Below, in pieces: positions 43,612 to 60,957 of a stretch of DNA of 64,000 bases. The stretch comes from a virus (lineage: Duplodnaviria > Caudoviricetes). Every line of letters starts with the position of its first letter. Position 1 is the first letter of the stretch. The notes beneath the pieces were generated by a model. It searched no databases, was not told the origin of the DNA, and saw only the letters and a list, made by a program, of their open reading frames with translations. The stretch lies in the IMG/VR virus record IMGVR_UViG_3300042268_000564; one strand, written 5' to 3'. The position numbers were made by a program, and so were the translations under genes.

Positions 43612-43676
43612 ACAGGCTGTTTTTACGTATAAGAGTATGAATCTTACTTGTTTTTGTTTTGCTGTAAACAGCCTTT
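43612..43676 (-). ncRNA. CAGCAA-module RNA, type A1: encloses a lone anticodon stem-loop (CAU)
   Basis: AAAGGCTG-TTTACAGCAA...TAAGA-TTCATAC-TCTTA...CAGCCTG. Confidence 0.75.
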
Positions 43677-43683
43677 ATTACGG

Positions 43684-43756
43684 CAGATGTGAAAGGGCTT
43701 GAACCTTTAACTTCTGGTTTTGGAGACCAGCACTCTTCCAATTGAGCTACACATCT
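43684..43756 (-). tRNA. tRNA-Trp(CCA)
   Basis: CTGGT-CTCCAAA-ACCAG; G discriminator. Confidence 0.92.
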
Positions 43757-43797
43757 ATTTATATCTATTATTTTATCTTTATGACGAAAATTGTCAA

Positions 43798-44103
43798 TTA
43801 ATTTTTAGAAAAAGTTCCAGAGGCATTTATATCACTTTCAGCTTGAACAGTTGTTGATGCTGGCGGGTCGGACAAATCAAGAATCGGTCGGATTGTTGCT
43901 CTTCCTTTAAAAGTCCGTCTAAAATCCTCGCCGGATAATTGATAAGACCATTCCCCCGTGCAATTGTCTCTTGATATAGAATAGCCACGAAACACCTTAA
44001 CTTGTCCATCTATGTGATACATGGTAAGCTCATGTTTTTGCTCTCTGCATCCACAATTGATTGTCATTAATAGGACAGCAGCAATAATTAAAGCATGTCG
44101 CAT
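43798..44103 (-). CDS. Small secreted or lipoprotein-like protein
   Basis: Hydrophobic N-terminus followed by NCGC. Confidence 0.55.
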   Translation of the reverse strand: MRHALIIAAVLLMTINCGCREQKHELTMYHIDGQVKVFRGYSISRDNCTGEWSYQLSGEDFRRTFKGRATIRPILDLSDPPASTTVQAESDINASGTFSKN

Positions 44104-44792
44104 ACTTTATTTGCCTCCACTTCATTTACCTTGTTAGGGTTTTCTCTAATAAATGGCGTGTCATCCACTTCGTCTGTAAAACCATATTTCTCATTTTTAA
44201 GCTCTCTCGCTGCTTGAAGCAAAACATTCTCAAAATATACTAATTCAGTAAGAGTTGCCGATGAATGATACCGACTTAACCCCTCTTTCACGTCTTTAAT
44301 GAATTTGTATATTAAGTCTGCGGTTTCGTTCTGGAAATCCTCATTTAATTGCATTGAAAGCATAAATTTGTTCATGCCACCTGCCAAAGCGCAAGATGTT
44401 GACCGCCATTTCTGTATATCAATTTGAATCAGCAGGTAATGGCATAAAAGAGTATTCGCCATAATAAACATTTTGTCGAATATCGCTATTTTTGAACTAT
44501 CACCAGCCCACGAATCAACAGCTTGAGCTTCTTCCATAATAGAACGAAACATAAACCTATAAGCAGCAATAAACTCGCCTAGCATTGTTGGTTTACCTTC
44601 GTCTTGGAGTAACAAAGTTGTGCCTGATTCTCTATGTAAGAGGTGGGCAGTCTCGCAACGATTACATTTTTTTATGATTAGCTGGTCACGCTCTTTATAG
44701 TTGCATAAGGACAGAAGGTTTATTTGTTGGGTATCATACTTGTGTCCAAAGGTGGCACACATTGTCTTTTTGATTGAATCAAATATGCTCAT
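44088..44792 (-). CDS. Hypothetical protein
   Basis: Translationally coupled ORF; N-terminal C..FGH...CNRC. Confidence 0.65.
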   Translation of the reverse strand: MSIFDSIKKTMCATFGHKYDTQQINLLSLCNYKERDQLIIKKCNRCETAHLLHRESGTTLLLQDEGKPTMLGEFIAAYRFMFRSIMEEAQAVDSWAGDSSKIAIFDKMFIMANTLLCHYLLIQIDIQKWRSTSCALAGGMNKFMLSMQLNEDFQNETADLIYKFIKDVKEGLSRYHSSATLTELVYFENVLLQAARELKNEKYGFTDEVDDTPFIRENPNKVNEVEANKVCDML

Positions 44793-45700
44793 TCAAACAT
44801 GTCCATTTCTGTAGTCGGCTTTTTATAGGATATCATCTTTCGTTCAGTTAACTTGTCTGAATCCTGTAAGCAGCCCAACAACATTGTCGAATTCCATTGA
44901 TGTTTTTGTAATTGTAAATCAGCTCTTTGTGCATAACAATAAACACAGCCATGCTTGCAAGAACTGTAAGCCCCAATATCAACTGATGTGACACAGCCAC
45001 ATTCCTGCCTCTGTCCTTTATCTTTGTTCAAAGTTAATGGTTGCCCTATAACCTTGGATATTAGTTCGTTGTCGATACATTTCCCGTGTTTTATCCCAAA
45101 TCGTGACAAATCCATTGTTTCGCTACAAGTTTCCAATTCAATCTCATAAGTCTCAGCAATTTTCGCAAAAGCTCCGCAGAGCATTTCTATTTGGTTCAAA
45201 GTTGGTGGCACAACATCTTGTATCTTCTTGTATTCGTCATAAAAGCTTATCACGCACTTTTGGGTTGCACCTGCCATTGATTTTGCAAGAAGCTCAAACT
45301 CGAAAATATGCTCCTTGACAGTATAAACACTTGTCAATAATATTGGGTCATAACGCCATATAATTTTGTCGCTGCCAATCTTAGTTGCCAATTCATGAGC
45401 GGCACAAACTGTGTAAATCATATCTGGAACATTTTTTTCAAGCTTGTAAGAATAAGGCGTTATTGTGAGTTGAAAATAATAATTGTAGTCCTTTAACAGG
45501 TCTAACTTGTTTTTCATGGGTTCCGGATTTTTTGTCCAGAAAACAATGCAGTCTACTACATCAGGTGTTAATTTGACTCTGGACACTTGCTTCGGCGACA
45601 TGGGATTTCTTACGTCACAAAAACCAGCTTTTAATCTGTTAAAGAACCAATCAGAATAAAAAGCAGGGATGTCGGTACGTCGACTCGCACTTATAATCAT
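44789..45700 (-). CDS. DUF1848 family protein (radical-SAM/SPL-related, Fe-S)
   Basis: MIISASRRTDIPAFY, VFWTKNP, IWRYDP, CGC...DIGAY..CKHGCVYCYA. Confidence 0.88.
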   Translation of the reverse strand: MIISASRRTDIPAFYSDWFFNRLKAGFCDVRNPMSPKQVSRVKLTPDVVDCIVFWTKNPEPMKNKLDLLKDYNYYFQLTITPYSYKLEKNVPDMIYTVCAAHELATKIGSDKIIWRYDPILLTSVYTVKEHIFEFELLAKSMAGATQKCVISFYDEYKKIQDVVPPTLNQIEMLCGAFAKIAETYEIELETCSETMDLSRFGIKHGKCIDNELISKVIGQPLTLNKDKGQRQECGCVTSVDIGAYSSCKHGCVYCYAQRADLQLQKHQWNSTMLLGCLQDSDKLTERKMISYKKPTTEMDMFE

Positions 45701-45709
45701 GTTACATCC

Positions 45710-46009
45710 TCATTCAGGCATATCTTGTTCTTGCAAGAATACAACAGCCTCTCTCATGAATTTTACGCCAACTATTCCAGCGCAGTTAGGATTATTATAT
45801 TCCTTTGTGAGCCGATAAAATTCTTTTCCTGCTTCAATCCTTAATCGTGTTCTTTCAGCGTCCCAGTCGAGAACCAACTTTGAAGCATCTTCTTTTCTCA
45901 TGTTTGTGTCTAATATCCGAGTGCAAATTGTATCCAATTTTGTTTCATGGTTAGCACAGACATCAAGTAACTCAGAAAGCTTCTTCGTATCTTTTTTCAT
46001 GGCTGGCAT
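45710..46009 (-). CDS. Hypothetical protein
   Basis: Promoter 46035-46062 (TTGACA-N16-TATAAT). Confidence 0.65.
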   Translation of the reverse strand: MPAMKKDTKKLSELLDVCANHETKLDTICTRILDTNMRKEDASKLVLDWDAERTRLRIEAGKEFYRLTKEYNNPNCAGIVGVKFMREAVVFLQEQDMPE

Positions 46010-46065
46010 TTCCCTCGCTTGTTAAGCTGCTATTATTATAACGACGACGCTGGCATTGTCAAGCA

Positions 46066-46093
46066 AAAAGCCCCTGAGAAATCAGGGGCTTTT
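46066..46093 (-). terminator. Intrinsic terminator
   Basis: aaaagcccctga-gaaa-tcaggggctttt. Confidence 0.8.
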
Positions 46094-46108
46094 CCAAAGG
46101 ATAAAGCT

Positions 46109-48370
46109 TTACAGATATTCAGTAACGGTTTTTGCCTTTACAAGCAGGGTCTTGTCTGCCTGAGTATAAACATAGTTACCTTTATCGTCGGCTTCGGTAA
46201 GTTCTTCAAACCAGTCACCTGTGAGCATCTTGGCAATCTTAACGCCACCTAACCAGTAACGGTTCTGACGCAGTCTCGCACGAACTTCTTTAAGTTCGGT
46301 TTCAAGCACTGGTTTCAGTTCTCTTGTAAGATTGTTAAGGTCTTGTCCTGCTTTTGCTACTTTGTCAGCAAGGATAGCTTTTGCGTCAATCATGATTTGC
46401 TGGCTGATAGTAGGTGTTTTACCGCTGGCAATTCTTGCTTCAACATCTTTTACTGATGGTAGAGAGGAAACACCTTTGAATATGAATGACAGGCTTCTTG
46501 TTTCGTAAGAATCAGAATTGGCAGCAGATGTCATGGTATTGTTGATACCTTTATAGACACCTGTCTTGTCAACGCCGTGGTCTTCAAGAACCTGAATCTG
46601 TTCAGGAGTGTATGATTTGAACACACCTGCTTCCTCTTTAAGCTCGGGAAAGGCAGCGTCGACAGCCTTGACATAGTGTCCAATCCACTTCTGGACTGCT
46701 TGGTCAACAATCATATCATTGCACAGGCTGAACACTTTACTCATGTCAGCACCTTTACTGAGGTAAGTGCGATTGATAATTGGAAGCTTGTCAAGCTCAA
46801 TGATTGCGACTACGGGGTTACTCATGCCTGCCTTTTTAAGGCTTGCCAGAGTAGCTTTGTCGGCTTTAAGGCTTGTCATTGTAGTTCCAGCCTTTTTAAG
46901 CGATTTGAAGGCTGCGTCAGACATAGCTACAACCATTTTTTTAATGTTCAAGGTGCCGTCTTTGATAACGGTGTGGGCGCGATAAACAAAGCTGTCGAAG
47001 GATTCAGCCAAGCCCACTCTTTGAGCTGCCTTATGATTGAGCTTCACTGTGCCGTAAGCTTTAAACCTGATAGACACATTCATTCTGTCTTCCGAGAAAA
47101 TAAAGTCTTCGAAAGATGCCATTACAAGGTCTTTCTTGTAAGAGAAGGCATTTTCAGCATCTTCAACCTTGCGTCGAGTGCGCTGGTACTTCTCTGCTTC
47201 TTTGTGCATTGGCAGGTAGTAAGCGTTGTCCTCGGCAAGGGCAAGAATAACATCCATTACACAATGAGCATTATGCTTTGGCAAGTAATTGGCAGGACAT
47301 TTGCCGTCTGCATAACGAGTGGTGGTGTCATGCAGTGCCTGTTCAAGTTGATTGATGTAATTTGCCGCTTCATCAAAGGTGAAAACCGACATTTGCGTAT
47401 CAGCCAGAGCTTTGTCACGGATATTTTTGGCAACAACGTCCAAGCATTTCTGACGCTTGCCGAGATAAAACATATTGTAAGCATAAGCATACAGGAATGT
47501 TTCTTTTGTCAGGTCAGGAATCGCATCAGTGATGTTTTTTGTGTTGGTTTTTACACCATCAACATCAACATCAAAGTCGTCCTTGCCGAGAACAAAAATT
47601 GTGCTGGCAGTTTTGCCCATTCGTGTAAGTGCCAGTTCATTTTCAGCCAGCTTGGTAAATCCAGTGGTAAGGTAAACAATTTCACCCTGAGCTTTTACAT
47701 TGATGGGTTCAGCAACGGTACCAGAAAGAACTTCGTAGTTTTTCACAAAGATATCTTTGTAATTATCTACTGCGGTAGAGTGAACAAAAACACCATATTC
47801 TGTTACGCTTGCCATTCTCTGGAGTAGATTCTGATTGTAGCCACAACCATAACCCACAGTGTTTACTGCAACGATTTTTTCTTTGAGCTGGTCTAAGCAA
47901 TCAAAGATTTTTCTTTCTTCTTCGGCAAGGCTCCAAGGCACAACAGGCTGCCCGTCAGTGAAAAATGTAACAGAAATATTAGGACAGAGGTCATAAAGTT
48001 CTGTGACAATCAGATTGATTTCTTTGATTGGGTCAGAGAAACAGGTCGTGCCGAGAGTATGTCTGAGTGAATCCAGAAGCTTGAGCAAGTTATCTGATTT
48101 TTTTGTCCCTTTAACAAGGGTGCGATATTCGCCGGGACTTGAGAACCAGATAATAGAGATAAGGTCATTGTCGTCCACTTCTTTGATAGTGGCTTGCACA
48201 TTATCAATTAATGTGTCGATTTCCCAAGTCATAGAACCTGAACGGTCAAGAACGTGGATGTGATGAAACTGTTTTTGTTCTACTTTGTCAGTTTCAACAG
48301 GGGTGATTGCCACCAGTGTTTTTTTACTGGTGCCAACGGTTACGGTTGATTTGCTTAACGTAACGTCCAT
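46109..48370 (-). CDS. vWA domain-containing protein
   Basis: VLDRSGSM MIDAS, FFTDG, TVGYG. Confidence 0.85.
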   Translation of the reverse strand: MDVTLSKSTVTVGTSKKTLVAITPVETDKVEQKQFHHIHVLDRSGSMTWEIDTLIDNVQATIKEVDDNDLISIIWFSSPGEYRTLVKGTKKSDNLLKLLDSLRHTLGTTCFSDPIKEINLIVTELYDLCPNISVTFFTDGQPVVPWSLAEEERKIFDCLDQLKEKIVAVNTVGYGCGYNQNLLQRMASVTEYGVFVHSTAVDNYKDIFVKNYEVLSGTVAEPINVKAQGEIVYLTTGFTKLAENELALTRMGKTASTIFVLGKDDFDVDVDGVKTNTKNITDAIPDLTKETFLYAYAYNMFYLGKRQKCLDVVAKNIRDKALADTQMSVFTFDEAANYINQLEQALHDTTTRYADGKCPANYLPKHNAHCVMDVILALAEDNAYYLPMHKEAEKYQRTRRKVEDAENAFSYKKDLVMASFEDFIFSEDRMNVSIRFKAYGTVKLNHKAAQRVGLAESFDSFVYRAHTVIKDGTLNIKKMVVAMSDAAFKSLKKAGTTMTSLKADKATLASLKKAGMSNPVVAIIELDKLPIINRTYLSKGADMSKVFSLCNDMIVDQAVQKWIGHYVKAVDAAFPELKEEAGVFKSYTPEQIQVLEDHGVDKTGVYKGINNTMTSAANSDSYETRSLSFIFKGVSSLPSVKDVEARIASGKTPTISQQIMIDAKAILADKVAKAGQDLNNLTRELKPVLETELKEVRARLRQNRYWLGGVKIAKMLTGDWFEELTEADDKGNYVYTQADKTLLVKAKTVTEYL

Positions 48371-48561
48371 AAAGCGAGGTTCTCCTTTTTTTACAATCTC
48401 TGTTTACTATTATAAACGTTTTTAAAAATTGTCAAGTAAAAAAAGAAAAACATCAATCTCAGCCTTTATTAGAAAGTATTTAATAGGAGCCTATTCGGTG
48501 CTTAAACTTGTCGCAGGGTATTAAGTTTTTAAAAGGCTGACGATGACTAAGGAGGAAAATT

Positions 48562-50361
48562 ATGTCACGTATTCATGGAACTAGAGCGATTATCGCCCAA
48601 ACGATTTCTAATGCAGCTATTGCGAATGATGCCGCTATTGCTGATATCAAGCTCGGCACTATCGCAACTGCAAACAAAGTTAACGTTTCTGCCATTTTTG
48701 GCGTTCTTTCTGCTGAAAAAGGTGGTACTGGTGTTAACAACGGTTCTAACACTATTACCCTTGGTGGTAATGTAAGTCTTGCTGGTGCTTTCTCAACCAC
48801 TGGTGCTTTCTCAACCACATTGAATCAGACAGCTAACGTTGTATTGAATTTGCCTTCAATTAACGGCACGCTTGCTACTGAAGAATATGTTGATGCTTTG
48901 GCACAATCTCTTGACCCAAAAGCTTCTGTAAGAGTTGCTACACAGGCTGCACTTCCTGCTGTTACTTATAACAACGGGGCTGCTGGCGTAGGTGCCACCC
49001 TTACTGCTGATGCTGTTGGTGCGCTTCCTGTTATCGACGATATCACTCTTGTAGCTGGCGACAGAATTTTGGTTAAAAATCAAGCCGATGCTACTCAGAA
49101 TGGTATCTATGTTGTAACTGTAGCTGGCGACGCTGGCACAGCTTTTGTTCTTACTCGTGGTACTGATTGTGATGGTTCACCAGCTAACGAAGTCTCTGGC
49201 GGCATGTTCACATTCGTAGAACAGGGAACTGTCTCTGGTGGGCACGGTTATGTACTTATTTTCGACGGCAACGCAGTTATTGGAACTGACGTTCTTAATT
49301 TCACACAGTTCTCTGGTGCAGGTCAATTGATTGGCGGAGATGGCATTTCTATTGACGGCAACACAGTAAATATCGACGCATCTTATTGGGATGATATTCA
49401 GCAAATCAACACATGGAATGTGGCTGGTGTTACAGGTATGGTTCAAGCCGACCTTCAAAAACTTGCCGATATGGACGTCACTGCCGCTGAACTGAACGAG
49501 CTTAATGGTGCCGGTTGCACAAACGCTGACTTTGTAAAACTTCACAATATCACAGTTTCTGCGGTGCAGCTTTCAGACGTTGCGACTCTTACCAGACTTG
49601 CCTCTACCACTAATGGTGATGGCGCAAGCTTGATTGGCGTTGAAGCAATCGCCGGACTTACTGCGACTACAGTTCAAGCCGCTCTCGCAGAATTGCTGGG
49701 CAATGACAATAACAACTCTGCCAATCTTACGGCTCTTGATGCGGCAGTAAATGGAAGAATTGACAGCATCGACGTTGCACTTGGAATTCCGGGTGATGTT
49801 TATGTTACTGGCACTGGCTCACTTCTTAATGTGGCCACATCTTTCATGGACGCCGACGAAATCCTTGAAGCCAAAGCTGTTAGCTTGCAGGGTGAATTGG
49901 ACGCAACTCAGGCTGGCGCAGGACTCAATCCTGATGGCGCTTATACTCCTAATGCTACCGCTAACTATATCTCAACCGCACAGTCTCTTAAAGATGCTGA
50001 CAACAAGCTCGACCTTGCTATCGAATCCGAAGAAGTTGCGAGAATCGCGGCTGTAGCTGATGAAGCCGCTGCAAGAACTGCTGCTGACGACGCTCTTAGT
50101 GGCAGACTTGATGCTGTTGAGGGTGGCGCACTTGGCATCGTTGACTATGACTTCCTCGGTAATGGTGATGGTTCACAAGTTCTGTATACAGTAAGCGCTG
50201 CTGCTTACCTTGCAGGCACTTTGAAGGTGTATATCAACGGTCTTCTCATGAAAAAAGGCACTGCTGCTGGCGAAGTTCAGGAAACTGACCCTGCAACAGG
50301 AACTTTCACTTTCGGGACTGCACCTGCGATTGATGATGAAATCATCGTTGCTCACCGCTAA
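48562..50361 (+). CDS. Probable virion structural (decoration/fibre) protein
   Basis: AAGGAGG RBS; ATEEYVD...KASVRVAT...DRILVKNQ...NGIY; C-terminal LKVYINGL. Confidence 0.75.
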   Translation: MSRIHGTRAIIAQTISNAAIANDAAIADIKLGTIATANKVNVSAIFGVLSAEKGGTGVNNGSNTITLGGNVSLAGAFSTTGAFSTTLNQTANVVLNLPSINGTLATEEYVDALAQSLDPKASVRVATQAALPAVTYNNGAAGVGATLTADAVGALPVIDDITLVAGDRILVKNQADATQNGIYVVTVAGDAGTAFVLTRGTDCDGSPANEVSGGMFTFVEQGTVSGGHGYVLIFDGNAVIGTDVLNFTQFSGAGQLIGGDGISIDGNTVNIDASYWDDIQQINTWNVAGVTGMVQADLQKLADMDVTAAELNELNGAGCTNADFVKLHNITVSAVQLSDVATLTRLASTTNGDGASLIGVEAIAGLTATTVQAALAELLGNDNNNSANLTALDAAVNGRIDSIDVALGIPGDVYVTGTGSLLNVATSFMDADEILEAKAVSLQGELDATQAGAGLNPDGAYTPNATANYISTAQSLKDADNKLDLAIESEEVARIAAVADEAAARTAADDALSGRLDAVEGGALGIVDYDFLGNGDGSQVLYTVSAAAYLAGTLKVYINGLLMKKGTAAGEVQETDPATGTFTFGTAPAIDDEIIVAHR

Positions 50362-50404
50362 CGACGGTTGCTAACGAATTAATTCGTTAGCCTATGAACA
50401 TGAT

Positions 50405-50437
50405 GGGAGGAGGAAACCCCTCCTCCCTATTTTTTTA
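50405..50437 (+). terminator. Intrinsic terminator
   Basis: gggaggagg...cctcctccc-tattttttt. Confidence 0.75.
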
Positions 50438-50466
50438 TAAAATAACCAAACAGGAGTATATTTTTA

Positions 50467-51498
50467 ATGAGCAATCTTATTTCAAACAACGGACAATTAG
50501 CTGTTCATAACGGGTTTTTAGCTCTTGGCGTATCAAGTGAAGATTTGCAACTGGCGTGGCGAGCGCTCGGCACTGGTGCGTCGTCTGACGTGAAGAAGGT
50601 GTTTGTCTCGTCTGCTGGCGATTTATATGCGGCAGGCACATTTGCGACAATGGATAATATTACGGTAAATCAAATAGCTAAATGGGACGGGAATAGTTGG
50701 TCTGCAATAGGTGAAGGCATTTCTCTTGGCGTTCCTCAAGCAATTGCAGAAGATAGTCTCGGCAATATTTATTTTGGCGCACAAAATCTTTTTAAATGGG
50801 ATGGCACGAATTTGTCAACTGTTTTAACGACAAATTTTAGTATCACAGACATGGCTTTCGATTCAAATGAAAATTTATATTTTGTTGGTGGATTCTCATC
50901 GGCTGGCGGCGTTACATGCAATAATATTGGCAAATGGGACGGCACTAATGTTACTTCGATAGGCAGTGGTGTAAATACAGCCGCTGCGGGGCTTGATGTG
51001 GCTATAGATTCATCCGACAATATTTATGTTGCTGGAAATTTTACAAATATTGATGGTGTTCCTGCGCAAAGAATCGCAGTATGGGACGGGATAGCATGGT
51101 CTGCCATGTCTACAGGGTTCTCTGAAATGGTTTATGATGTTTACGCATCTGGGAATGATGTGTATGCTGCGGGGTTTAACTATTCTCAAACAGGTTCTAC
51201 AGTAAATAAATGGAATCCTGCAAATAATAACTGGGAAGTAGTAGGCAGCCATCCTTATACTGCTTATGAACTCCAGACTTATAATGGGAACTTAATTGCT
51301 GTCGACGATATAGGCGTTCATCAATATATAAACAGCTCTTGGGAATTAATTCCTACGATTTATTCTTCTATTGCTGGCGCAAGAACACTAGCTATTAAAA
51401 ATGACGAGATTTTTATAGGTGGGACTTTTACAAGTATCAATAGTCAAACTGGTAGCATCAGTGCGAATCGTATTGCTAAATATGGTTATAGCATTTAA
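50467..51498 (+). CDS. Beta-propeller repeat protein
   Basis: Repeated LY.GG.F...IA.WDG..W. Confidence 0.75.
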   Translation: MSNLISNNGQLAVHNGFLALGVSSEDLQLAWRALGTGASSDVKKVFVSSAGDLYAAGTFATMDNITVNQIAKWDGNSWSAIGEGISLGVPQAIAEDSLGNIYFGAQNLFKWDGTNLSTVLTTNFSITDMAFDSNENLYFVGGFSSAGGVTCNNIGKWDGTNVTSIGSGVNTAAAGLDVAIDSSDNIYVAGNFTNIDGVPAQRIAVWDGIAWSAMSTGFSEMVYDVYASGNDVYAAGFNYSQTGSTVNKWNPANNNWEVVGSHPYTAYELQTYNGNLIAVDDIGVHQYINSSWELIPTIYSSIAGARTLAIKNDEIFIGGTFTSINSQTGSISANRIAKYGYSI

Positions 51499-51534
51499 TT
51501 CCTTGTCCCTATCTCCTGACAAAGGATTGTAATT

Positions 51535-52170: not shown

Positions 52171-52181
52171 GGAGGTAGGGT

Positions 52182-53012: not shown

Positions 53013-53024
53013 TGGAGGCAACAA

Positions 53025-53383
53025 ATGACTAACTTTAGCTTGCGTGTAAAACACTATTCAACGGGGGGGCATGGACGCTTGTGGGCACGTTTGAAGCCCC
53101 TGTGATTAACTCTCGTTTCGACTTGTGGGGCACAAGTTCGTCACCTTGGGTTGAGTGTCAAGTTCTTGCAGTAGATAAACCTTTACAATTGTCGTTTTAC
53201 GCTCAATATGACGGTTTGGTCGTTCCTCAAACCACTGTAATTATGCCAGAAGATGGTTGGGTTACAATGGCTGCGCACAATGGGAATTTAGACTACACAG
53301 AGGCAGCCGTGACAAGAGTATTGTCAGATGGCGCAGGAAATATCTTTTTTGATAGCAGTGGGAATGTTTTAACAGACCTTTAA
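53025..53383 (+). CDS. Hypothetical protein interrupted by a frameshift at a G7 run
   Basis: GGAGG+ATG at 53025 stops after 26 codons; the -1 frame continues to 53383. Confidence 0.5.
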
Positions 53384-53407
53384 AAAGTGGTTATTACAGG
53401 GCTTATT

Positions 53408-53830
53408 TTAAGCCCTGTAATAAATAACCTCAACCGTGCCAAGCAGATAAGTATCTTCGCTTGCATTAATCCATTTTATAGTGTCGCCATCAACCTCAAA
53501 ATCAATGCCAACTTTTTGCGGCAATGTTTCATAAATAAGCTGAATAGGCGCAGTCTGGTTCACCACATATTCGAGCGGGAATTGTGTTCTAGGTGTAGTA
53601 AAATTAAACCTTTGGAAAACGGGCACGGATTTGCCGACATTTTCTTGCAGGCTTATAAGTTGTGATTCGAGAGATTCAATTCTTTGCGCTAATAAACCAT
53701 GAATTTGAGAATCTTCCACATTAGACAAGTCGCTGCCGGGAGGCAACAAAGATTCTATCACTTTTATAACTTTTGCTCTTTTTACCTTTGTTTTATGTAG
53801 CCCGGGCGGCAGCTTATGAGTCTTATTCAT
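53408..53830 (-). CDS. Small structural-type protein sharing its N-terminal module with the 8634 gene
   Basis: LPP...SLL...GLL..R.E.LES.L..LQ. Confidence 0.65.
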   Translation of the reverse strand: MNKTHKLPPGLHKTKVKRAKVIKVIESLLPPGSDLSNVEDSQIHGLLAQRIESLESQLISLQENVGKSVPVFQRFNFTTPRTQFPLEYVVNQTAPIQLIYETLPQKVGIDFEVDGDTIKWINASEDTYLLGTVEVIYYRA

Positions 53831-53847
53831 GACACCATCTCAACTTA

Positions 53848-54246
53848 TTACAGGATATCGTCGTCGTTACGTTGTCTGCGAACAGGTTCTGTCGACTGCT
53901 GTGTGGCGGAATGTGTTTTATTTAAAGCATTTTGTATGGATTTTGTCTCATTGGCTGAAACATTCGTCTGTGGTGTAGCCTCTGCAAGGTCTTTGTTCAT
54001 TGCATTTCTAATCAAAGAAAGCCGGGTAAGGGCATAATTTTCTTTCAAAGTCTCGATTTGCAAAATCAAAAGATTCAACGCTGTTTCATTATAAGTAATG
54101 TCAGTCATTGTCCGCATGTTGGCGTCTTTTATAAGCTTGATTTTATAAATTTTTTCTTCGAAATCAGCTTCTGCTGGTGGTTGGACTGGCGCAGAGCTAG
54201 GTGTGGCAGGTGGTGTATTTTTTTTGACAGGTGATTTTTTAACCAT
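53848..54246 (-). CDS. Hypothetical protein
   Basis: GGAG RBS. Confidence 0.6.
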   Translation of the reverse strand: MVKKSPVKKNTPPATPSSAPVQPPAEADFEEKIYKIKLIKDANMRTMTDITYNETALNLLILQIETLKENYALTRLSLIRNAMNKDLAEATPQTNVSANETKSIQNALNKTHSATQQSTEPVRRQRNDDDIL

Positions 54247-54346
54247 AAAACAAATCTCTCCAAACTAAATTTTTACTTGTATATATTATACTTTCAAACT
54301 AGCTTACAAAAACGCCAACAGAAAAATCGCATGATGGCTGTTATTA

Positions 54347-54727
54347 TTAATCTTTATCAGACGTTAAAAAACTGTCTATCTGAGCTTTGACAAGCTTATA
54401 TTGTTCATGAAAATATCTTGCATCTTCTTTGTTCATGATATGGCAAGACATGAACATGGGATAACCATTAAATCCCATTGTGCCAGCTTTATCCATATAT
54501 TCATACACCATCGCTGTGTCTGGCGGTAACGGTTCCTCCATCAATGCAAGCACCATAAAAATATTCGGCAAAAGATGTAGGTCGTGTTCGGGGATATGAC
54601 CAGAAGTAAAAATTTTGTTTTGATAGCAATCCATTGCCAATTGCTTTAATTCTTGGTCGGTCATTTTTCTGACACTTCTATCTTTATCAATAGCGATGTC
54701 GGGCATATTCTCAGGCTTGATTGTCAT
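54347..54727 (-). CDS. Hypothetical protein
   Basis: ORF in a minus-strand run. Confidence 0.65.
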   Translation of the reverse strand: MTIKPENMPDIAIDKDRSVRKMTDQELKQLAMDCYQNKIFTSGHIPEHDLHLLPNIFMVLALMEEPLPPDTAMVYEYMDKAGTMGFNGYPMFMSCHIMNKEDARYFHEQYKLVKAQIDSFLTSDKD

Positions 54728-54765
54728 TTTTTTATTAGTTCCTTTTGGATAAAAGTTAGTGAACG

Positions 54766-55170
54766 TCAACCGAACAGCCATTTAAACGCAGCAAACATCA
54801 AAAGCAAGTGCATGGTGTTGTCTGAAACTACATAAACAATTGGTGAAAACATTTTTCTTATTTCTCTGGTTTGGTAATTCTCTATTTTAAATACATCTAC
54901 TGGTGGTGTACTACCAATCATTTTCATCCATTTATTGGCAAGCCCATATCTATCAATAGGGTAGTGGCTCAAAAACGCAATAACAAATATTTGCCAAGAC
55001 AAAATCCCTATACAAGACATAGTGACAGTCATTGTCAAAGCATAAACAATACAATGAATGAGGCACGCCCATAGTCCTGTCCATGTTTTTTGTTGTTTAT
55101 TTGTTGCCATCCAGTCGGTTTGGAACAAATAGTCGCCAATGAAATGCCCAAAGAAAATAGCTTCAAACAT
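54766..55170 (-). CDS. DUF3307 membrane protein
   Basis: HFIGDYLFQTDWMA..K, H...Y, HYPID, DNTMH. Confidence 0.8.
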   Translation of the reverse strand: MFEAIFFGHFIGDYLFQTDWMATNKQQKTWTGLWACLIHCIVYALTMTVTMSCIGILSWQIFVIAFLSHYPIDRYGLANKWMKMIGSTPPVDVFKIENYQTREIRKMFSPIVYVVSDNTMHLLLMFAAFKWLFG

Positions 55171-56053
55171 TGGATTCTTTTTTCCTTTCAATCATTTCAA
55201 CAAGAGGTTCAAACAGGGCTTTTGTTCCACCTTTATTATTAAAATTGTCTAAATATCGTTTAGCTCTCGCAGTCATTTTTGCCGCATATTTTGTTTCAAT
55301 TTGTTCTTTTATTTCCATGTAAGAGCTGTGCTTGTATTGATGCTCAGGGTCTTTTCTTTTATTCTCTCGAAACAACCTGTCCACAATTTTTTCACTTGTG
55401 TAAACTAAGGTATATTTGTGAATTTTTTCGGCTGAAAAAAAATATTCCAATTTGCCAATCAAAGCTTCAAGCCAATCAACGTCCCATCTTGCAATTCCTC
55501 TGGTAAGACGGTCAATACCTTCTGCGACAATACAAAACATTTCATTACTCGGAACGCCACTATCGTCCAATAGGACGTGAGACCAATCTTTTTTTCTTTG
55601 TTCCCATTCTTCCTCGGTAGCGGTTTCGTCAGGGTCAGTGTTGTCCCAATAACCGTATGGAATAGCAATACCTGAGTCCATGAACAATTTCCTTGTCATG
55701 GAGCCGCCAAATAAAAGCCCTAACAGGTTTCCATCAGGTGCAGAGCTAACACCAAGTGCAATTTCGTTTTCTCTTACGAAATTTCGTCTATTTCTTTCCC
55801 CTGCCAAGCTGTATCTGTCTTTCTCATTATCAAAGATTTCATTCATTATGATATTATTTATCATTTTAAGAGAGTTATCAAATGATTCGTTTTTGAAAAC
55901 ATAATGTCTTACAAGGTCATAACCGCCAGTGAGCAGTAATTCAGCCAGAACGTCATGAAAAATACCTCCAGCGGCACATTTCTTGAATACAGCTTTTATT
56001 TCAGCAAGAGAATTCGTGGTGAATTTTACACCGTCATATATCTTTATGCTCAT
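55163..56053 (-). CDS. Hypothetical protein
   Basis: 296-aa ORF; YGYWDNTDPD...EW..R...W. Confidence 0.7.
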   Translation of the reverse strand: MSIKIYDGVKFTTNSLAEIKAVFKKCAAGGIFHDVLAELLLTGGYDLVRHYVFKNESFDNSLKMINNIIMNEIFDNEKDRYSLAGERNRRNFVRENEIALGVSSAPDGNLLGLLFGGSMTRKLFMDSGIAIPYGYWDNTDPDETATEEEWEQRKKDWSHVLLDDSGVPSNEMFCIVAEGIDRLTRGIARWDVDWLEALIGKLEYFFSAEKIHKYTLVYTSEKIVDRLFRENKRKDPEHQYKHSSYMEIKEQIETKYAAKMTARAKRYLDNFNNKGGTKALFEPLVEMIERKKESNV

Positions 56054-56240
56054 TCTTAGCCAGCCTTTCTAAACGTTTTTTATATTCAGCTTTCCACTTT
56101 ACAATCGTGGAAATGGAAACATGATGCCTTGCCGCCAAAACAGGATTTGTCAAGTCAGGGTATTTCTCAAAACTCGCCATTACATCCCTTTTCTTTGCGT
56201 CTTTGTGTTTGATATTTCTACGTCCCATTCCAAAAGTCAT
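56034..56240 (-). CDS. Small HTH protein
   Basis: LAARHHVSISTIVKW. Confidence 0.55.
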   Translation of the reverse strand: MTFGMGRRNIKHKDAKKRDVMASFEKYPDLTNPVLAARHHVSISTIVKWKAEYKKRLERLAKNEHKDI

Positions 56241-56353
56241 CGAGAGTATCCTTTCGTTGCAAGTGAATTAATTGCCTCTGGAGCAAACATTCCAGTCCAG
56301 TTTATTATTTTTATATATTCTATTATATGCCCAAGTTAAAAGTTAAATAATGT

Positions 56354-56410
56354 CAAATATACAAAACAGGTGAAAGAATGTTTTGTTCTTTCACCTGTTT
56401 TGTATATTTG
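56354..56410. repeat. 25-bp perfect inverted repeat
   Basis: caaatatacaaaacaggtgaaagaa-N7-ttctttcacctgttttgtatatttg. Confidence 0.85.
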
Positions 56411-56430
56411 CTTATTTATTGATTGGCAAA

Positions 56431-57345
56431 TTAAGAGGTTTTATAAGCCAAAAAGCCGCTAGTGTAATTGAAGCCTGTTATGTAAATTGCATCGCCATAC
56501 ATATTAACACTCGCTGCCATTCCTCGACCATATGGCAGTGATGCATAGCTAGTATTGCCAGTCGCAACATCTATAAAATATAAAAAGTTGTCGTAACTCA
56601 CAACATATATAGTATTGCCATCAGCAGACAATTTAACATCTGTTGGTTTTTCAGGATAGAATGGCTGTGTAAGATTTGTTCCATCTACATTCATCGAATA
56701 AAAGCCGTCCAAATAGGCAGCCATATAAATTTTGTCATTAACGATTTCTAATCCCAAAATATCCTTGGTCGAATTTAAGTGCTCAATTAATGTCATATTA
56801 GCATCAAGTTTATCTATCCCAAACCCATAGCGGCTCGCAAAATAAATATTATTATTAGAGTCCTCTGCGAAAGCAACGCCATGAAAGTTACTTCCAGTAT
56901 GAGTATAATGGTTCACATAGTTTCCAGATAAATCATGTTTAACGATAGTGAATTCATCATAAGCGTGCAACATATGCTGATTATCTTTCATGAAATAAAT
57001 CTTCGAATCATGCATATAAACTTCTTCTTCGTTCCTTGTATAATTAGGGATGTCGTCAGAATATTTAATAAGATGTCCTGCGGCGTCGAAAATCTTAATA
57101 TTAGCTTGAGACTGTAGAGTTAAATATAAATATTGTTCGTCAGGTGTCACAAAAATGCCGCATGGCAGACTATTTCCACCCAAATCAGGGAAAATACTTG
57201 TAGACTCACCACCCGTGACAGTTGACGCTACACTCCCGTCTGGCAAAACAATAGTCGGGGAAAAATTAACACTAGGGTCGTAGACATAAATATATTCATT
57301 ATCGTCATGAATTAATCGACCATCCACAGTAACTAGGTATGCCAT
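56431..57345 (-). CDS. Beta-propeller (YVTN/NHL-like) protein
   Basis: PCGIFVTPD..YLY, PTDVKLSADG.TIYV. Confidence 0.65.
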   Translation of the reverse strand: MAYLVTVDGRLIHDDNEYIYVYDPSVNFSPTIVLPDGSVASTVTGGESTSIFPDLGGNSLPCGIFVTPDEQYLYLTLQSQANIKIFDAAGHLIKYSDDIPNYTRNEEEVYMHDSKIYFMKDNQHMLHAYDEFTIVKHDLSGNYVNHYTHTGSNFHGVAFAEDSNNNIYFASRYGFGIDKLDANMTLIEHLNSTKDILGLEIVNDKIYMAAYLDGFYSMNVDGTNLTQPFYPEKPTDVKLSADGNTIYVVSYDNFLYFIDVATGNTSYASLPYGRGMAASVNMYGDAIYITGFNYTSGFLAYKTS

Positions 57346-57391
57346 AAGCTTTACTCCTTTTCGTTCTACTTCTAATACTTTAAAGTAAGGA

Positions 57392-57934
57392 TTAAAGCAA
57401 TATTAATGATTTGTGTGGTTTAATTGCGTCATCTGGCCATTTTTTGTAGGAAGCTATCTTTCTCATAGCTCTTTTTCTGGCATCTTCCACAGAGTCCCCC
57501 TCTGCCCAAACAATGTCGTGAATGCCTTCGTCTCGCAAGTCAGCTTCTTCTGATGTTATAAGGTGAGGCTGCGTCCTTTTGCCATCGGCACGGCATTCTA
57601 GGCTTTTTACAACAAATGACACCTCGCCCGTTTCAAGCCAAAACCCCACGTTATATTTTGTAATAGCTCTTAAATCGCTCGTTGTTTCTACAATGTTTCT
57701 TTCAACAATACAAAATTCTTGCTTAAGATATTCACGATAAGGTGGGAGCGTTCCCAACATACACTCATTTTCTGCGCCTCGCCATCTCTCTTGAGATTCC
57801 CGTTTATCCAAATATTCTTGCCTGCCGAGCATGAACATTGCCTTCCTTGCAAGTTTTTTGTCGAAAAAAATTCCTGTAATAATGGCTTCGCCGCCAAGAC
57901 TGCAATCAGAATGCAAAAAGTATGCTTTAATCAA
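57392..57934 (-). CDS. Hypothetical protein
   Basis: GGAG plus a TTG start overlapping the upstream TGA. Confidence 0.55.
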   Translation of the reverse strand: MIKAYFLHSDCSLGGEAIITGIFFDKKLARKAMFMLGRQEYLDKRESQERWRGAENECMLGTLPPYREYLKQEFCIVERNIVETTSDLRAITKYNVGFWLETGEVSFVVKSLECRADGKRTQPHLITSEEADLRDEGIHDIVWAEGDSVEDARKRAMRKIASYKKWPDDAIKPHKSLILL

Positions 57935-58986
57935 GAGTTTTCTCCTTCGTTTTCTGTTATAAAAGTCCCAACCCCGTCTAATGTAAATGATGTGCCCCAC
58001 ACTCGCCATCGCCAAGTGTTTAAATCGTAGTCTTTTAAGCAATCTACTTTCTCTTGAAAAGGAATCAAGAATGGTATCTTGGAATCAATATCGTTACTTG
58101 GACAAGGAAGTAATACAGATGTTTTTGAATCTGACTTAAATATGTTTGCAAACATCGCTGTATAGATGTCTATGTTAGGCTTCTTCTTGTCACCATAACA
58201 AATTATGTTGTTTGGGTTGCTGCAATCATAACGTCTAATGACTCCACTTTTGTCAGCAGCCAAAAAATTAGTTTCATTCAGTTTACAAGCCACCAATCTA
58301 AAATCTGGATATTTGTCCTTCAGTTTTGCAATGGTCTTTATAGCTTTTGGGGGTGGGGTGAACCCCGTCAGTTCTTTCTTTTGCGTGAATTTAATTTGGT
58401 TAAAATACATCTTTAACCAGTTCATTAGCTTTGAAGGAAACTCTCTTTCAATAGAGCGATGGTGTTCTAATGTAAGCTTAAAGGGATATCCATCTTTTGG
58501 ACGACAATCACAATGTCCGTCCCAGAAGTTAAAAACAAAGTTTATATTGGCTTGATTGACATTTTCAACCGTAGATTCTTGAGAGGCAAGAAATTTTTTC
58601 TTTTTTATGAATGACCGTGCCTTTGGATTTTTCCGCCAATCTTTAAATGTAGTGTTATCTGGAATGACATCTGGCTCCTTAGCAAATAATAGATAGGCAT
58701 CAAACTTATCTGCATTGTTTTTGATGTAATCGTGATAGTCAAACAAGGTTTCACAGTATTTAACTTTGTTGCAACACATCATAATATCTCTTGCATCTTT
58801 TTCTCGTTCGGGTTTTACAATATGAACATCGAAATGACGTTGGAGTGTATAAATGAGGTCTTCAAAGATACGAGACCTGTCTGTCAGGTCGGGACACCCT
58901 ATGCTGACAAATACCTTTTCAATAATAGCTTTTGCAGAAAAATGCCCATAAGACACTAATATTGATTTACGAGTCGTTTTTTTCAT
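57931..58986 (-). CDS. Hypothetical protein
   Basis: Promoter 58993-59020; near-leaderless. Confidence 0.7.
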   Translation of the reverse strand: MKKTTRKSILVSYGHFSAKAIIEKVFVSIGCPDLTDRSRIFEDLIYTLQRHFDVHIVKPEREKDARDIMMCCNKVKYCETLFDYHDYIKNNADKFDAYLLFAKEPDVIPDNTTFKDWRKNPKARSFIKKKKFLASQESTVENVNQANINFVFNFWDGHCDCRPKDGYPFKLTLEHHRSIEREFPSKLMNWLKMYFNQIKFTQKKELTGFTPPPKAIKTIAKLKDKYPDFRLVACKLNETNFLAADKSGVIRRYDCSNPNNIICYGDKKKPNIDIYTAMFANIFKSDSKTSVLLPCPSNDIDSKIPFLIPFQEKVDCLKDYDLNTWRWRVWGTSFTLDGVGTFITENEGENS

Positions 58987-59016
58987 GTCTTTATTATAAA
59001 AAGAGCGAGCTGGATG

Positions 59017-59418
59017 TCAACTTTTTATTTTGGGCAGAATGTTATTTTCCAGTGTTCTAATAATAGAATGTAATTCAGTTATTATTTCTCTGTCGGATTT
59101 ATATAGCTCAGGGTTCCTTGCGAACCATACCAATTTGTAAAACAAAATCTCGCAACATTCATGAAAAGCTGTGCGCTCAATCTCGAATAAAGATGTCTCA
59201 GGATGATAAAGCCATTCGTCGTTAATGCAAAGGCGAACCTGTTGTGCACCACAATCTATGTCATGTGGAATAGTTTTGGCACGAAATTGTCCATCTGCCC
59301 AATCCACCACCACGACGATGATTTGCCAGTGATTAAGGTTCAATAAGTCCTTATATCTGTTAACACAATTACGGAAATGAGAAAGATTGGCTGGTATTGG
59401 TTTCATTTGTTCATCCAT
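59017..59418 (-). CDS. Zincin-like hypothetical protein
   Basis: AFHECCE...ELH. Confidence 0.55.
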   Translation of the reverse strand: MDEQMKPIPANLSHFRNCVNRYKDLLNLNHWQIIVVVVDWADGQFRAKTIPHDIDCGAQQVRLCINDEWLYHPETSLFEIERTAFHECCEILFYKLVWFARNPELYKSDREIITELHSIIRTLENNILPKIKS

Positions 59419-59435
59419 GCCTTTATATTACTCTA

Positions 59436-59472
59436 AAAAACAAATAAGCCCGTAGCTTTTGGGCTACAGGCT
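59436..59472 (-). terminator. Probable terminator of the RNA cluster
   Basis: AGCCTGTAGC...GCTACGGGCT then TATTTGTTTTTT. Confidence 0.6.
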
Positions 59473-59509
59473 CACTTGTATATCAATTTGCCTAATAGAG
59501 CTTAATAAA

Positions 59510-59582
59510 ACAGATTGTTGTTTTAACAAAGATTAACAGTCTTTTGCTCATTTGAGCGGTTGTGTTGCTGTAAACAATCTTT
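59510..59582 (-). ncRNA. CAGCAA-module RNA, type A2: encloses a mini D-stem and an anticodon stem-loop (GUU)
   Basis: AAAGATTG-TTTACAGCAAC...GCTC-AAAT-GAGC-A-AAAGA-CTGTTAA-TCTTT...CAATCTG. Confidence 0.75.
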
Positions 59583-59598
59583 ATTTAAAAAGCATCAG

Positions 59599-59735
59599 GG
59601 CAGGAAGTAGGACTCGAACCTACACGTCTTGCGACACCAGTCCCGTTGTTAAGTAGTTTGAGTTGCTGTATGTAACCTTTGTCAGGTTAACCTTTACTTT
59701 TTTACTGGTGCGTCTGCCAATTCCGCCATTCCCGC
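59599..59735 (-). ncRNA. tRNA-like RNA, type B1: Leu-type body with the anticodon loop replaced by a ~62-nt CAGCAA module
   Basis: GCGGGAA/TTCCTGC acceptor, Leu D-arm, ACCAGT/ACTGGT stem, long variable arm, GGTTCGAGTCC; insert TAACCTGACAAAGGTTACATACAGCAAC. Confidence 0.85.
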
Positions 59736-59739
59736 CAAA

Positions 59740-60306
59740 TTATCTTTTGCCACTCCTATCTTTAATCAGGTCAATAAGAGCCTGCACTTTCTCAATTGTC
59801 AAAAAGCCATCGAAATCAAAGTTGTGAACAACGATACAGTTTGTTATATTTTTTTCATCGTTCGGGTCATAGGTAGAAATAGTAACCATTTCATTAAAGT
59901 CACCAATATTTCCAGCCTGTAGTAACCTGCGTCTACCCAAGCGATAAAAAATTTGATGTCCAATGGTGAAATGAGGTATTTCTTCAAAACCAAGTGCTAT
60001 TAGGTCAGCATTTTTAAGTGGTGTCCCTCTGTATTCCGGCTTATCTTTATCTGCAAGCAGATTGATAAAAGCATTTATCTTTTCTTCCGTTAAAGCACCC
60101 TCAAACAGATGGTCGTGAAGAGAAATTATGTCGGTTATTTCTTTTCCATCATTGTCGTCAATCATAAGCGATTCACTGGTTGTTCCAACGCCAGCAACAC
60201 TTAACGCTCGTCCACGACTCAAAGGATAAAAGAAATTGCCACCAATAGAATATTGAGGACGTCTTTTAAATCCAAGTTCCAACAAGTCTTCAGTTGTAAG
60301 TGTCAT
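59740..60306 (-). CDS. Hypothetical protein made of two tandem ~90-aa domains
   Basis: Twice L...DL..LGF...P...IG...FY.L.R.R.L...G.LT.EK..A.I.L. Confidence 0.75.
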   Translation of the reverse strand: MTLTTEDLLELGFKRRPQYSIGGNFFYPLSRGRALSVAGVGTTSESLMIDDNDGKEITDIISLHDHLFEGALTEEKINAFINLLADKDKPEYRGTPLKNADLIALGFEEIPHFTIGHQIFYRLGRRRLLQAGNIGDFNEMVTISTYDPNDEKNITNCIVVHNFDFDGFLTIEKVQALIDLIKDRSGKR

Positions 60307-60361
60307 TTTTTACCATTCCTTAACTAAGCTTGTTGTTATTATAACCAAAAAGAACAAGTTG

Positions 60362-60586
60362 TCAACTTGTTCTTTTTGATTTCGGTACAATTGGAAGCTT
60401 TTCATGCTTAGCAAAATGTCGTTTTAGAAAGGTAAGCATCTTCTCACCATTCTCAGTTAAGACAAAACCTGTTCCATTGCATTTTCCACACTCATAGTTC
60501 TGATTGCATGAACATTCTTCATCAAGCTTTACAATGGTATTAGCGTTGATGTCTTTCTTGCACTTAAGAACTATTTTTTCTTGCAT
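60362..60586 (-). CDS. Small zinc-finger protein
   Basis: CSC...CGKCNGTG; start trimmed to exclude the RNA genes. Confidence 0.6.
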   Translation of the reverse strand: MQEKIVLKCKKDINANTIVKLDEECSCNQNYECGKCNGTGFVLTENGEKMLTFLKRHFAKHEKLPIVPKSKRTS

Positions 60587-60611
60587 GAAAATTCCCTTCT
60601 GGAAAGAACAG

Positions 60612-60730
60612 GGCGGGGGATAGGACTTGAACCTATGACCTAAAGCTTGTATTTTTTTGGGTTGCTGCATGTAACCTTTTGTCAGGTTAACTTTTAATGG
60701 CTCTCGCTCTACCAACTGAGCTACCCCCGC
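60612..60730 (-). ncRNA. tRNA-like RNA, type B2: class I body with the anticodon loop replaced by the CAGCAA module
   Basis: GCGGGGG/CCCCCGC, GCTCAGTTGGTAGAGC, AGAGC/GCTTT, AGGTC, GGTTCAAGTCC; insert TAACCTGACAAAAGGTTACATGCAGCAAC. Confidence 0.85.
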
Positions 60731-60741
60731 AATTTTATAAA

Positions 60742-60802
60742 ACAGGCTGTCAATTTTAACAATTTCAAGTTGTTTGTTGTTGAGTTGCTGAAAACAGCCT
60801 TT
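60742..60802 (-). ncRNA. CAGCAA-module RNA, type A3: encloses a lone anticodon stem-loop (UGA)
   Basis: AAAGGCTG-TTTTCAGCAAC...AACAA-CTTGAAA-TTGTT...CAGCCTG. Confidence 0.75.
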
Positions 60803-60810
60803 ATTCTCGG

Positions 60811-60909
60811 TGGGGCAGATTGGATTTGAACCAATAATTCTTTGTGTTGCAGTATCAAACCTTATCAGGCTTGCTCGCCCTCTACCAATGTGAGCGATAT
60901 ACCTGCCCC
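60811..60909 (-). ncRNA. tRNA-like RNA, type B3: divergent body with a module variant in place of the anticodon arm
   Basis: GGGGCAG/CTGCCCC, ATTGG-TTCAAAT-CCAAT; insert AAGCCTGATAAGGTTTGATACTGCAAC. Confidence 0.75.
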
Positions 60910-60925
60910 ATATTCGGTGCCGGAA

Positions 60926-60957
<32 letters not shown>

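What the first reader, a model, noticed from the sequence alone, without database searches (positions are those of the whole stretch)
43612..60802. Three free-standing anticodon stem-loop RNAs (type A) showing CAU, GUU and UGA
Seen: each ~65-nt element holds a 5-bp stem with a 7-nt loop of tRNA form (Y-U-NNN-A-N): TAAGA-TTCATAC-TCTTA, AAAGA-CTGTTAA-TCTTT and AACAA-CTTGAAA-TTGTT. The stems differ in sequence while the geometry is fixed. A2 also keeps a shrunken D-stem (GCTC/GAGC) at the correct spacing. Each lies next to a tRNA or tRNA-like gene, so normal tRNA processing could release it. Inference: these are anticodon decoys with a swappable specificity loop (Met/Ile2, Asn, Ser).
Basis: partly seen in the sequence, partly recalled or inferred. 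Interest (0 to 1): 0.85.

Follow-up and report, generated by a model that had tools for sequence, protein, structure and literature searches.

The report
Anticodon-displaying RNAs of phage Ro60-like protein
Three ~65-base RNA genes in a giant phage's tRNA clusters each join a conserved "handle" to a copy of a tRNA anticodon arm; they belong to a widespread RNA family that I could not find described, which travels with a Ro60-shaped ring protein and may bait the tRNA-cutting enzymes bacteria use against phages.

Summary
Observation confirmed. The three minus-strand elements are real. A covariance model built only from other phages hits exactly them (42, 40, 32 bits; next 11.8), plus two degenerate copies 180 kb away beside a DUF2828 gene. 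Phages with this handle encode DUF2828 (40/47 records against 1/28 controls, and that one also has handle RNAs). The protein's model (pLDDT 93) matches Ro60 best. Anticodon arms are under selection in the family (44 of 203 short RNAs against 2.5 by chance) and skew to Lys UUU, Asn GUU, Ser GCU/UGA, overlapping PrrC and PARIS targets. About three quarters of relatives carry other cargo, so these are the anticodon-arm subclass of a Y-RNA-like family, probably protein-held and not free-standing. A1's loop is elongator Met, not Ile2. Binding, expression and decoy activity are untested. This scan found the family before in at least 18 other genomes; I found no paper on it. The handle resembles Dictyostelium Class I RNA, below the family cut-off.

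The parts
43613..43676 (-). A1: clamp helix (43666-43674 with 43614-43622), ACAGCAA box (43659-43665), anticodon arm with elongator-Met CAU loop (43630-43646); spacer between tRNA-Trp and tRNA-Gly
   Evidence: model R1 32.3 bits
59511..59582 (-). A2: clamp (59573-59580 with 59512-59519), ACAGCAA (59565-59571), D-stem-like hairpin (59546-59557), Asn GUU anticodon arm (59528-59544); between tRNA-like B1 and a terminator
   Evidence: R1 40.4 bits
60743..60802 (-). A3: clamp (60793-60800 with 60744-60751), TCAGCAA (60785-60791), Ser UGA anticodon arm (60758-60774); between tRNA-like B3 and B2. The remaining parts of the system lie outside the window: A4 (genome 306110-306180, +), A5 (307155-307217, +) and the DUF2828 gene (307342-308916, +)
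   Evidence: R1 42.0 bits; weak RF01414 hit, E 0.29; outside parts:
59599..59735 (-). B1: tRNA body whose anticodon arm is replaced by the same handle in permuted form (hairpin, then ACAGCAA)
60612..60730 (-). B2: tRNA body with a handle hairpin and GCAGCAA in place of the anticodon arm
60808..60909 (-). B3: compact tRNA-like RNA with a handle hairpin and the variant box ACTGCAA
43770..43797 (-). sigma-70-type promoter (11/12) ahead of the Trp-A1-Gly-Thr unit; terminator at 43384-43411
   Evidence: consensus match only
60338..60365 (-). sigma-70-type promoter (12/12) ahead of the ORF-B1-A2 unit; terminator at 59440-59479
   Evidence: consensus match only

Best explanation
The three elements are small RNA genes of the anticodon-arm subclass of a phage Y-RNA-like family. 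Step 1 (shown by sequence analysis): each is a clamp helix + ACAGCAA box (handle) + a 5-bp/7-nt anticodon arm. Step 2 (inferred from consensus promoters and terminators): they are transcribed inside tRNA operons and cut out by tRNA processing. Step 3 (strong genetic and structural inference): the phage's DUF2828 ring protein, which has the Ro60 fold, binds the handle, protects the joined ends and keeps the box unpaired, which favours the anticodon arm. Step 4 (inferred, weakest): the particle presents the arm as bait or competitive substrate to host tRNA anticodon nucleases (PrrC/RloC, PARIS AriB, VapC-type), sparing real tRNAs during infection; changing the loop retargets it. My odds: real structured RNAs 0.97, partner of DUF2828 0.85, arm read by some tRNA-recognising factor 0.8, that factor being a defence nuclease about 0.45.
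For: A model from other phages finds exactly A1-A3 in the window and five copies genome-wide. DUF2828 is in this genome, in 40/47 handle-bearing records (16/17 of those at least 90% complete) and in 1/28 controls; that one control has strong handle RNAs. 15/25 DUF2828 genes have a handle within 700 nt upstream, as here (A5). Handles lie next to or within a few kb of the gene in cultured E. coli, Mycobacterium, Listeria and Vibrio phages. The AlphaFold2 model has pLDDT 93 and its 13 best Foldseek hits are Ro60/Rsr/TROVE structures (E 2.5e-9, TM 0.47-0.63). Arms occur in 44/203 clusters against 2.5 shuffled. A loop-only selection gives 46/120 fully paired stems against 2.2. Mimic stems are 23% GC against 59% in real tRNAs, yet stay paired. 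Census of 57 arms: UUU 21, GUU 8, GCU 6, UGA 3; U36 in 77% against 40% of comparable real tRNAs; UUU 37% against 4.7%. AriB cuts tRNA-Lys(UUU), Thr(UGU) and Asn(GUU), which share U36-A-A-U (PMC12409363); 43 of 56 mimics have U36 and 43 have U39. PrrC cleaves isolated modified anticodon stem-loops (PMC1950546).
Against: About 75% of short handle RNAs lack an anticodon arm. The arms of A2-A5 are not in the naked-RNA minimum-energy fold, and A4/A5 stems are imperfect. The census is not corrected for kinship or A/U richness, so the Lys excess may be partly inherited. U36-A37 and A36-A37-A38 are also the signals for t6A and i6A enzymes (own knowledge). A cleavable bait for a catalytic nuclease needs high copy number or slow product release. 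PrrC depends on base modifications that a mini-RNA may not receive. In this genome the protein gene is 180 kb from A1-A3.
Confidence: 0.45

Rival explanations
1. Tether or adaptor, as in RYPER: the handle binds the Ro60-like ring and the anticodon arm recruits or sequesters a housekeeping tRNA-reading factor (t6A/i6A modification enzyme, Lys/Asn/Met synthetase, ribosome, PNPase) to retune host translation or RNA turnover.
For: Known Y RNAs tether Ro60 to PNPase (PMC4201824), also in Thermus phage phiLo (PMC12135203). 55 of 57 arms have U36 or A36 before A37, the t6A/i6A contexts. Cargo is modular: T/D-arm mimics and plain hairpins also occur.
Against: Ser GCU/UGA arms (A3 here) are common, although seryl-tRNA synthetase does not read the anticodon (own knowledge). 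The strong Lys UUU excess fits nuclease targets better than a general modification sink.
Confidence: 0.25
2. tRNA-damage sensor or repair platform (Rtc-like): cleavage of the arm reports tRNA damage or switches the ring on, and the particle feeds broken tRNAs to an RNA ligase.
For: rsr-yrl-rtcB precedent (own knowledge; RNA repair operon paper listed) and TROVE proteins proposed as repair platforms in jumbo phages (PMC7824862). Listeria phage List-36 has RtcB 1.3 kb after the DUF2828 gene. A Lys-loop handle sits in the gene's own leader before a terminator.
Against: RtcB is in only 1 of 40 handle-bearing records tested. This genome has no RtcB or Rnl2-type ligase hit; the Rnl1 search was inconclusive.
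Confidence: 0.12
3. One reading: protein-free anticodon decoys in which the clamp only stabilises the ends.
For: A1 folds into clamp + arm unaided. A1-A3 lie 180 kb from the protein gene.
Against: An invariant single-stranded box shared with RNAs that have no anticodon (type B, hairpin cargo), and tight co-occurrence with DUF2828.
Confidence: 0.08
4. Only the handle matters (to titrate, store or regulate the ring protein); the anticodon arms are fading remains of tRNA-derived ancestors.
For: Most cargo has no arm; A4/A5 arms are degenerate; the stems are A/U-rich and weak.
Against: All five stem pairs change on both sides while pairing is kept. Loops match the real loop of the cognate tRNA and avoid A34.
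Confidence: 0.1

Closest known systems
Ro60/Rsr (TROVE + vWA) with Y RNAs: YrlA/YrlB (Rfam RF02553; Chen et al. 2014, PMC4201824) and phage phiLo Ro60-Yrl1/2 (PMC12135203)
   Same: Ring protein fold; RNAs closed by a 5'/3' helix with a short conserved motif on the 5' side and a tRNA-mimicking module; genes often adjacent. Relatives with permuted T-arm/acceptor/D-arm cargo copy the YrlA layout.
   Different: The protein is DUF2828 + DUF7788, not Pfam TROVE, 12-16% identity to Ro60. The motif is ACAGCAA, not GNCGAA/CGAA. YrlA shows D and T arms and no anticodon arm; these show only the anticodon arm. No RF02553 hit on A1-A3.
Dictyostelium Class I RNAs (Rfam RF01414; Kjellin et al. 2021, PMC7919456)
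   Same: About 60 nt; a short stem joining the ends; an 11-nt motif next to the 5' strand with T3, C6, C9, A10, A11; start AAG and end CUGU. A1-A3 have all of these. The model's three best hits in the 394-kb genome are A4, A5 and A3.
   Different: Scores 17.6-21.9 bits against a cut-off of 41.5. Reported only from dictyostelids, with a DUSE promoter and the RRM partner Rnp1A; no anticodon cargo is mentioned in the passages read.
Phage tRNAs that counter anticodon nucleases (T5 tRNA-Lys/Thr/Asn against PARIS AriB; PMC11464382, PMC12409363)
   Same: Encoded in phage tRNA clusters; overlapping anticodon set (Lys UUU, Asn GUU, Thr UGU).
   Different: Those are full, chargeable tRNAs that resist cleavage and replace the host's. 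These have no acceptor end and keep the cleavable consensus loop, so they could only bait or signal.

Membership tests
Bacterial/phage Y RNA (YrlA, RF02553) | GNCGAA (CGAA) Ro60-binding motif near the 5' end | tested here: not met
   No CGAA in A1-A3; the box is WCAGCAA (motif definition)
Bacterial/phage Y RNA (YrlA, RF02553) | Permuted tRNA module with T and D arms; match to RF02553 | tested here: not met
   No RF02553 hit on A1-A3; the cargo is an anticodon arm. Some relatives do have the permuted module.
Bacterial/phage Y RNA (YrlA, RF02553) | Terminal helix joining the 5' and 3' ends | tested here: met
   8-9 bp clamp in each; all 7 modelled pairs change on both sides across 45 relatives (these were selected for pairing)
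Bacterial/phage Y RNA (YrlA, RF02553) | Ro60 orthologue with a Pfam TROVE domain in the same genome | tested here: not met
   No PF05731 hit
Ro60-like RNP (works like) | A protein of Ro60 fold in the same genome that co-occurs with the RNAs | tested here: met
   DUF2828 model matches Ro60; 40/47 against 1/28
Ro60-like RNP (works like) | Physical binding of the RNA to the ring protein | not testable with these tools
   Needs pull-down or gel shift
Dictyostelium Class I RNA (RF01414) | End-joining stem, 11-nt motif with T3/C6/C9/A10/A11, AAG start, CUGU end, about 60 nt | tested here: met
   Read directly on A1-A3 against the description
Dictyostelium Class I RNA (RF01414) | Score above the Rfam gathering cut-off (41.5 bits) | tested here: not met
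   Best 21.9 bits in this genome; 26.7 in phage fjerdesal
tRNA (RF00005) | Acceptor stem, T arm, cloverleaf | tested here: not met
   No ARAGORN or RF00005 hit on A1-A3
tRNA anticodon arm mimic | 5-bp stem, 7-nt loop, Y32-U33, purine 37, loop equal to that of the cognate tRNA | tested here: met
   The three loops are loops seen in real Met, Asn and Ser(UGA) tRNAs
Anticodon-nuclease decoy | Binds, is cut by, or inhibits an anticodon nuclease | not testable with these tools
   Only the overlap of anticodons with known targets could be shown

The most novel reading that the evidence does not exclude
A retargetable anti-defence particle: a phage Ro60-like ring is loaded with interchangeable small RNAs whose constant handle docks on the ring and whose variable anticodon arm baits a given tRNA-cutting immune nuclease. 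The same handle survives as the Class I RNAs of social amoebae.
Probability: 0.35. Interest if true: 0.92.

Novelty: new variant of a known kind. Interest (0 to 1): 0.76.

Why it matters
tRNA cleavage is a common bacterial anti-phage strategy, and the phage answers I found in the literature are resistant tRNAs, repair enzymes or protein inhibitors. An RNA bait with an exchangeable anticodon would be a different kind of counter-measure. Even if the decoy step is wrong, the family supplies a likely RNA partner for DUF2828, a protein with matches in 695 phage records (FelixO1-like, Listeria, Vibrio and Mycobacterium phages among them). It also offers a testable lead for Dictyostelium Class I RNAs, whose mechanism is unknown. 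The handle-protein pairing can be tested in laboratory E. coli or M. smegmatis phages.

Tried and rejected
Exact-sequence search for this phage's handle in viral contigs: no match. DNA similarity to cultured phages gave only tRNA fragments. Pfam TROVE, RtcB and RNA_ligase: no hit in this genome; T4 Rnl1 inconclusive because no control rang. The search for related loci with the DUF2828 protein found nothing; sequence search of PDB was blank. The single-sequence fold was poor and was replaced by an alignment-based fold. The first homologue scan demanded the Asn loop, so it was left out of the anticodon census. Pair counts use RNAs chosen for pairing; the non-circular test is the loop-only permutation. 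The specific type-B pattern scan returned mostly chance hits. Literature searches for ACAGCAA, DUF2828, Ro-like phage RNAs and anticodon decoys found no description of the family; the library lacks most subscription papers. Rejected: intron remnants (no splice signals seen; too short), the Thr-leader hit over A2 and its terminator (35.6 bits against a cut-off of 55), and A/B splicing into one tRNA (joining the two topologies gives no cloverleaf; reasoning only).
Full report
Setting. The window is positions 63068-127067 of a 393,839-base virus record, estimated complete. It carries about 30 tRNA genes, mostly on the minus strand. Rfam and ARAGORN do not annotate the three elements; a sub-threshold Thr-leader hit overlaps A2 and its terminator.

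Observation. All three stem-loops are present as described. A2's GCTC/GAGC hairpin is followed by one A and the 5-bp stem, the spacing of tRNA positions 22-31. In shuffled cargo a comparable arm arises with probability 0.001-0.002 per element. Each arm sits inside a larger unit: an 8-9 bp clamp helix joining the ends, followed on the 5' side by WCAGCAA and an A/C-rich linker. A1 lies between tRNA-Trp and tRNA-Gly in a unit with a consensus promoter and terminator. A2 lies between tRNA-like B1 and a terminator, and A3 between tRNA-like B3 and B2. Release by tRNA processing is plausible but not shown. The loops equal those of real tRNAs: A1 this phage's elongator tRNA-Met, A2 its tRNA-Asn, A3 the loop of all 41 Ser(UGA) tRNAs sampled. 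Folding adds a caution. Only A1's arm is stable in the naked RNA; A2's appears when the clamp is fixed and the box kept unpaired; A3's stays weak.

The family. Earlier notes of this scan pointed to an ACAGCAA handle tied to DUF2828; I tested this here. Scans keyed on the handle, not the cargo, gave 405 distinct handle RNAs in 368 loci. Of 203 short-cargo clusters, 44 hold a 5-bp arm with a Y-U-N-N-N-R loop, against 2.5 (sd 1.5) in shuffles; 7-nt loops are the clearly enriched length (64 against 18.7). Selecting on the loop alone, 46 of 120 flanks pair fully against 2.2 after permuting 3' flanks. Mimic stems are 23% GC against 59% in real tRNAs of the same loci, so they are not fresh tRNA debris. 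Related scaffolds carry different anticodons, which supports the 'swappable loop'. The other three quarters carry plain hairpins or weakly structured cargo, and longer relatives carry T/D-arm tRNA mimics. A covariance model from 45 RNAs of other phages finds A3, A2 and A1 at 42.0, 40.4 and 32.3 bits, with nothing else above 11.8 in the window. Genome-wide it finds two more outside the window: A4 (genome 306110-306180, Asp GUC-type arm) and A5 (307155-307217, Lys UUU loop). The neighbouring tRNA-like genes B1-B3 hold the same handle in permuted form in place of the anticodon arm, a type also seen in about 25 loci of other genomes.

The partner protein. The genome has no Pfam TROVE gene but encodes a 524-residue DUF2828 + DUF7788 protein at genome 307342-308916, directly after A5. 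Its alignment-based model has pLDDT 93 and pTM 0.92. The 13 best Foldseek matches are all Ro60, Rsr or TROVE structures, including the Thermus phage phiLo Ro60. DUF2828 occurs in 40 of 47 handle-bearing virus records and in 1 of 28 control records whose pattern match appeared to be chance. The controls are smaller on average; of the 11 above 90 kb only one is positive, and it carries handle RNAs. 15 of 25 DUF2828 genes have a handle within 700 bases upstream. In cultured phages the handles lie near the gene: fjerdesal, BigCheese (gene annotated 'Ro-like RNA binding protein'), List-36 and R11Z. In this genome the 3' clamp strand of A5 can pair with the 5' arm of a terminator just before the gene's start. 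The paused leader folds as an antiterminator unless the clamp is held, which would give feedback control by the protein; the 15 kcal/mol gap makes this a prediction only.

What the arm is for. Among 57 arms the anticodons are UUU 21, GUU 8, GCU 6, UGA 3, and two each of UGU, GUA, GAU, CAU and UUA. U36 is in 77% against 40% of comparable real tRNAs, Lys UUU in 37% against 4.7%, and A34 in 3 against 23 expected. AriB of PARIS cuts Lys(UUU), Thr(UGU) and Asn(GUU), which share U36-A-A-U (PMC12409363), and PrrC cleaves isolated modified anticodon stem-loops (PMC1950546). A bait role is therefore biochemically possible and fits the skew best. The skew is not corrected for kinship or A/U content, and the same contexts are read by t6A and i6A enzymes (own knowledge), so a tether role remains. 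A repair platform is less likely in general: RtcB is in 1 of 40 handle-bearing records and absent here, although List-36 has it nearby.

Comparison. The system works like Ro60 with Y RNAs (PMC4201824, PMC12135203) but fails the YrlA tests: no GNCGAA motif, no T/D module in type A, no TROVE match. It shares size, end stem, 11-nt motif and terminal letters with Dictyostelium Class I RNAs (PMC7919456). RF01414 ranks A4, A5 and A3 first in the genome, though far below its cut-off. I found no paper describing the family. This scan has reported it from at least 18 other genomes; those notes were leads and are not counted as evidence.

Verdict. The feature is real and belongs to a widespread RNA family with no published description found: a new variant of the Ro60/Y-RNA kind whose cargo is a bare anticodon arm. 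The protein link is strong but indirect. The decoy function is the best guess, at about 0.45, and is untested.

Noticed in passing
window 60918-61721 (-): tRNA-Leu(UAA) split between U34 and A35 by a group I intron (RF00028, 81.9 bits) that holds an HNH endonuclease ORF.
   Followed up: partly
window 59599-59735, 60612-60730, 60808-60909 (-): Three tRNA bodies with the handle in place of the anticodon arm; B1 and B2 end in C73. About 25 similar RNAs with covarying hairpins were found in other genomes.
   Followed up: partly
G000:C1:307110-307342 (outside window): The DUF2828 leader has a promoter, handle A5, two hairpins and a terminator whose 5' arm can pair with the 3' clamp strand: possible autoregulation.
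   Followed up: partly
G000 whole record: ARAGORN finds no tRNA for Lys, Cys, Val or Ser(UGA), although A5 and A3 display Lys UUU and Ser UGA loops; Met and Asn tRNAs are present.
   Followed up: no
window 62861-63413 (-) and L123 about 7900-8414 (-): A tRNA-Leu(UAG) followed by a small Cys-rich ORF appears twice about 2 kb apart, each with a consensus promoter nearby; looks like a local duplication.
   Followed up: no
window 46109-48370 (-); 16246-19674 (+): A 753-aa protein with an N-terminal vWA domain, and what looks by eye like an AAA ATPase plus vWA-type pair; neither was linked to the RNAs.
   Followed up: no
window 21029-22696 (+); 19708-20886 (-); 26466-27584 (-): By eye from the translations: a protein interrupted by an intein-like insert, and two TnpB-like ORFs.
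   Followed up: no
L640:7485-7680 (Mycobacterium phage BigCheese); L639:16710-17480 (E. coli phage fjerdesal); L641:11570-11830 (Listeria phage List-36): Unannotated handle RNAs beside the DUF2828 gene of cultured phages, including YrlA-like permuted tRNA cargo; ready test systems.
   Followed up: partly
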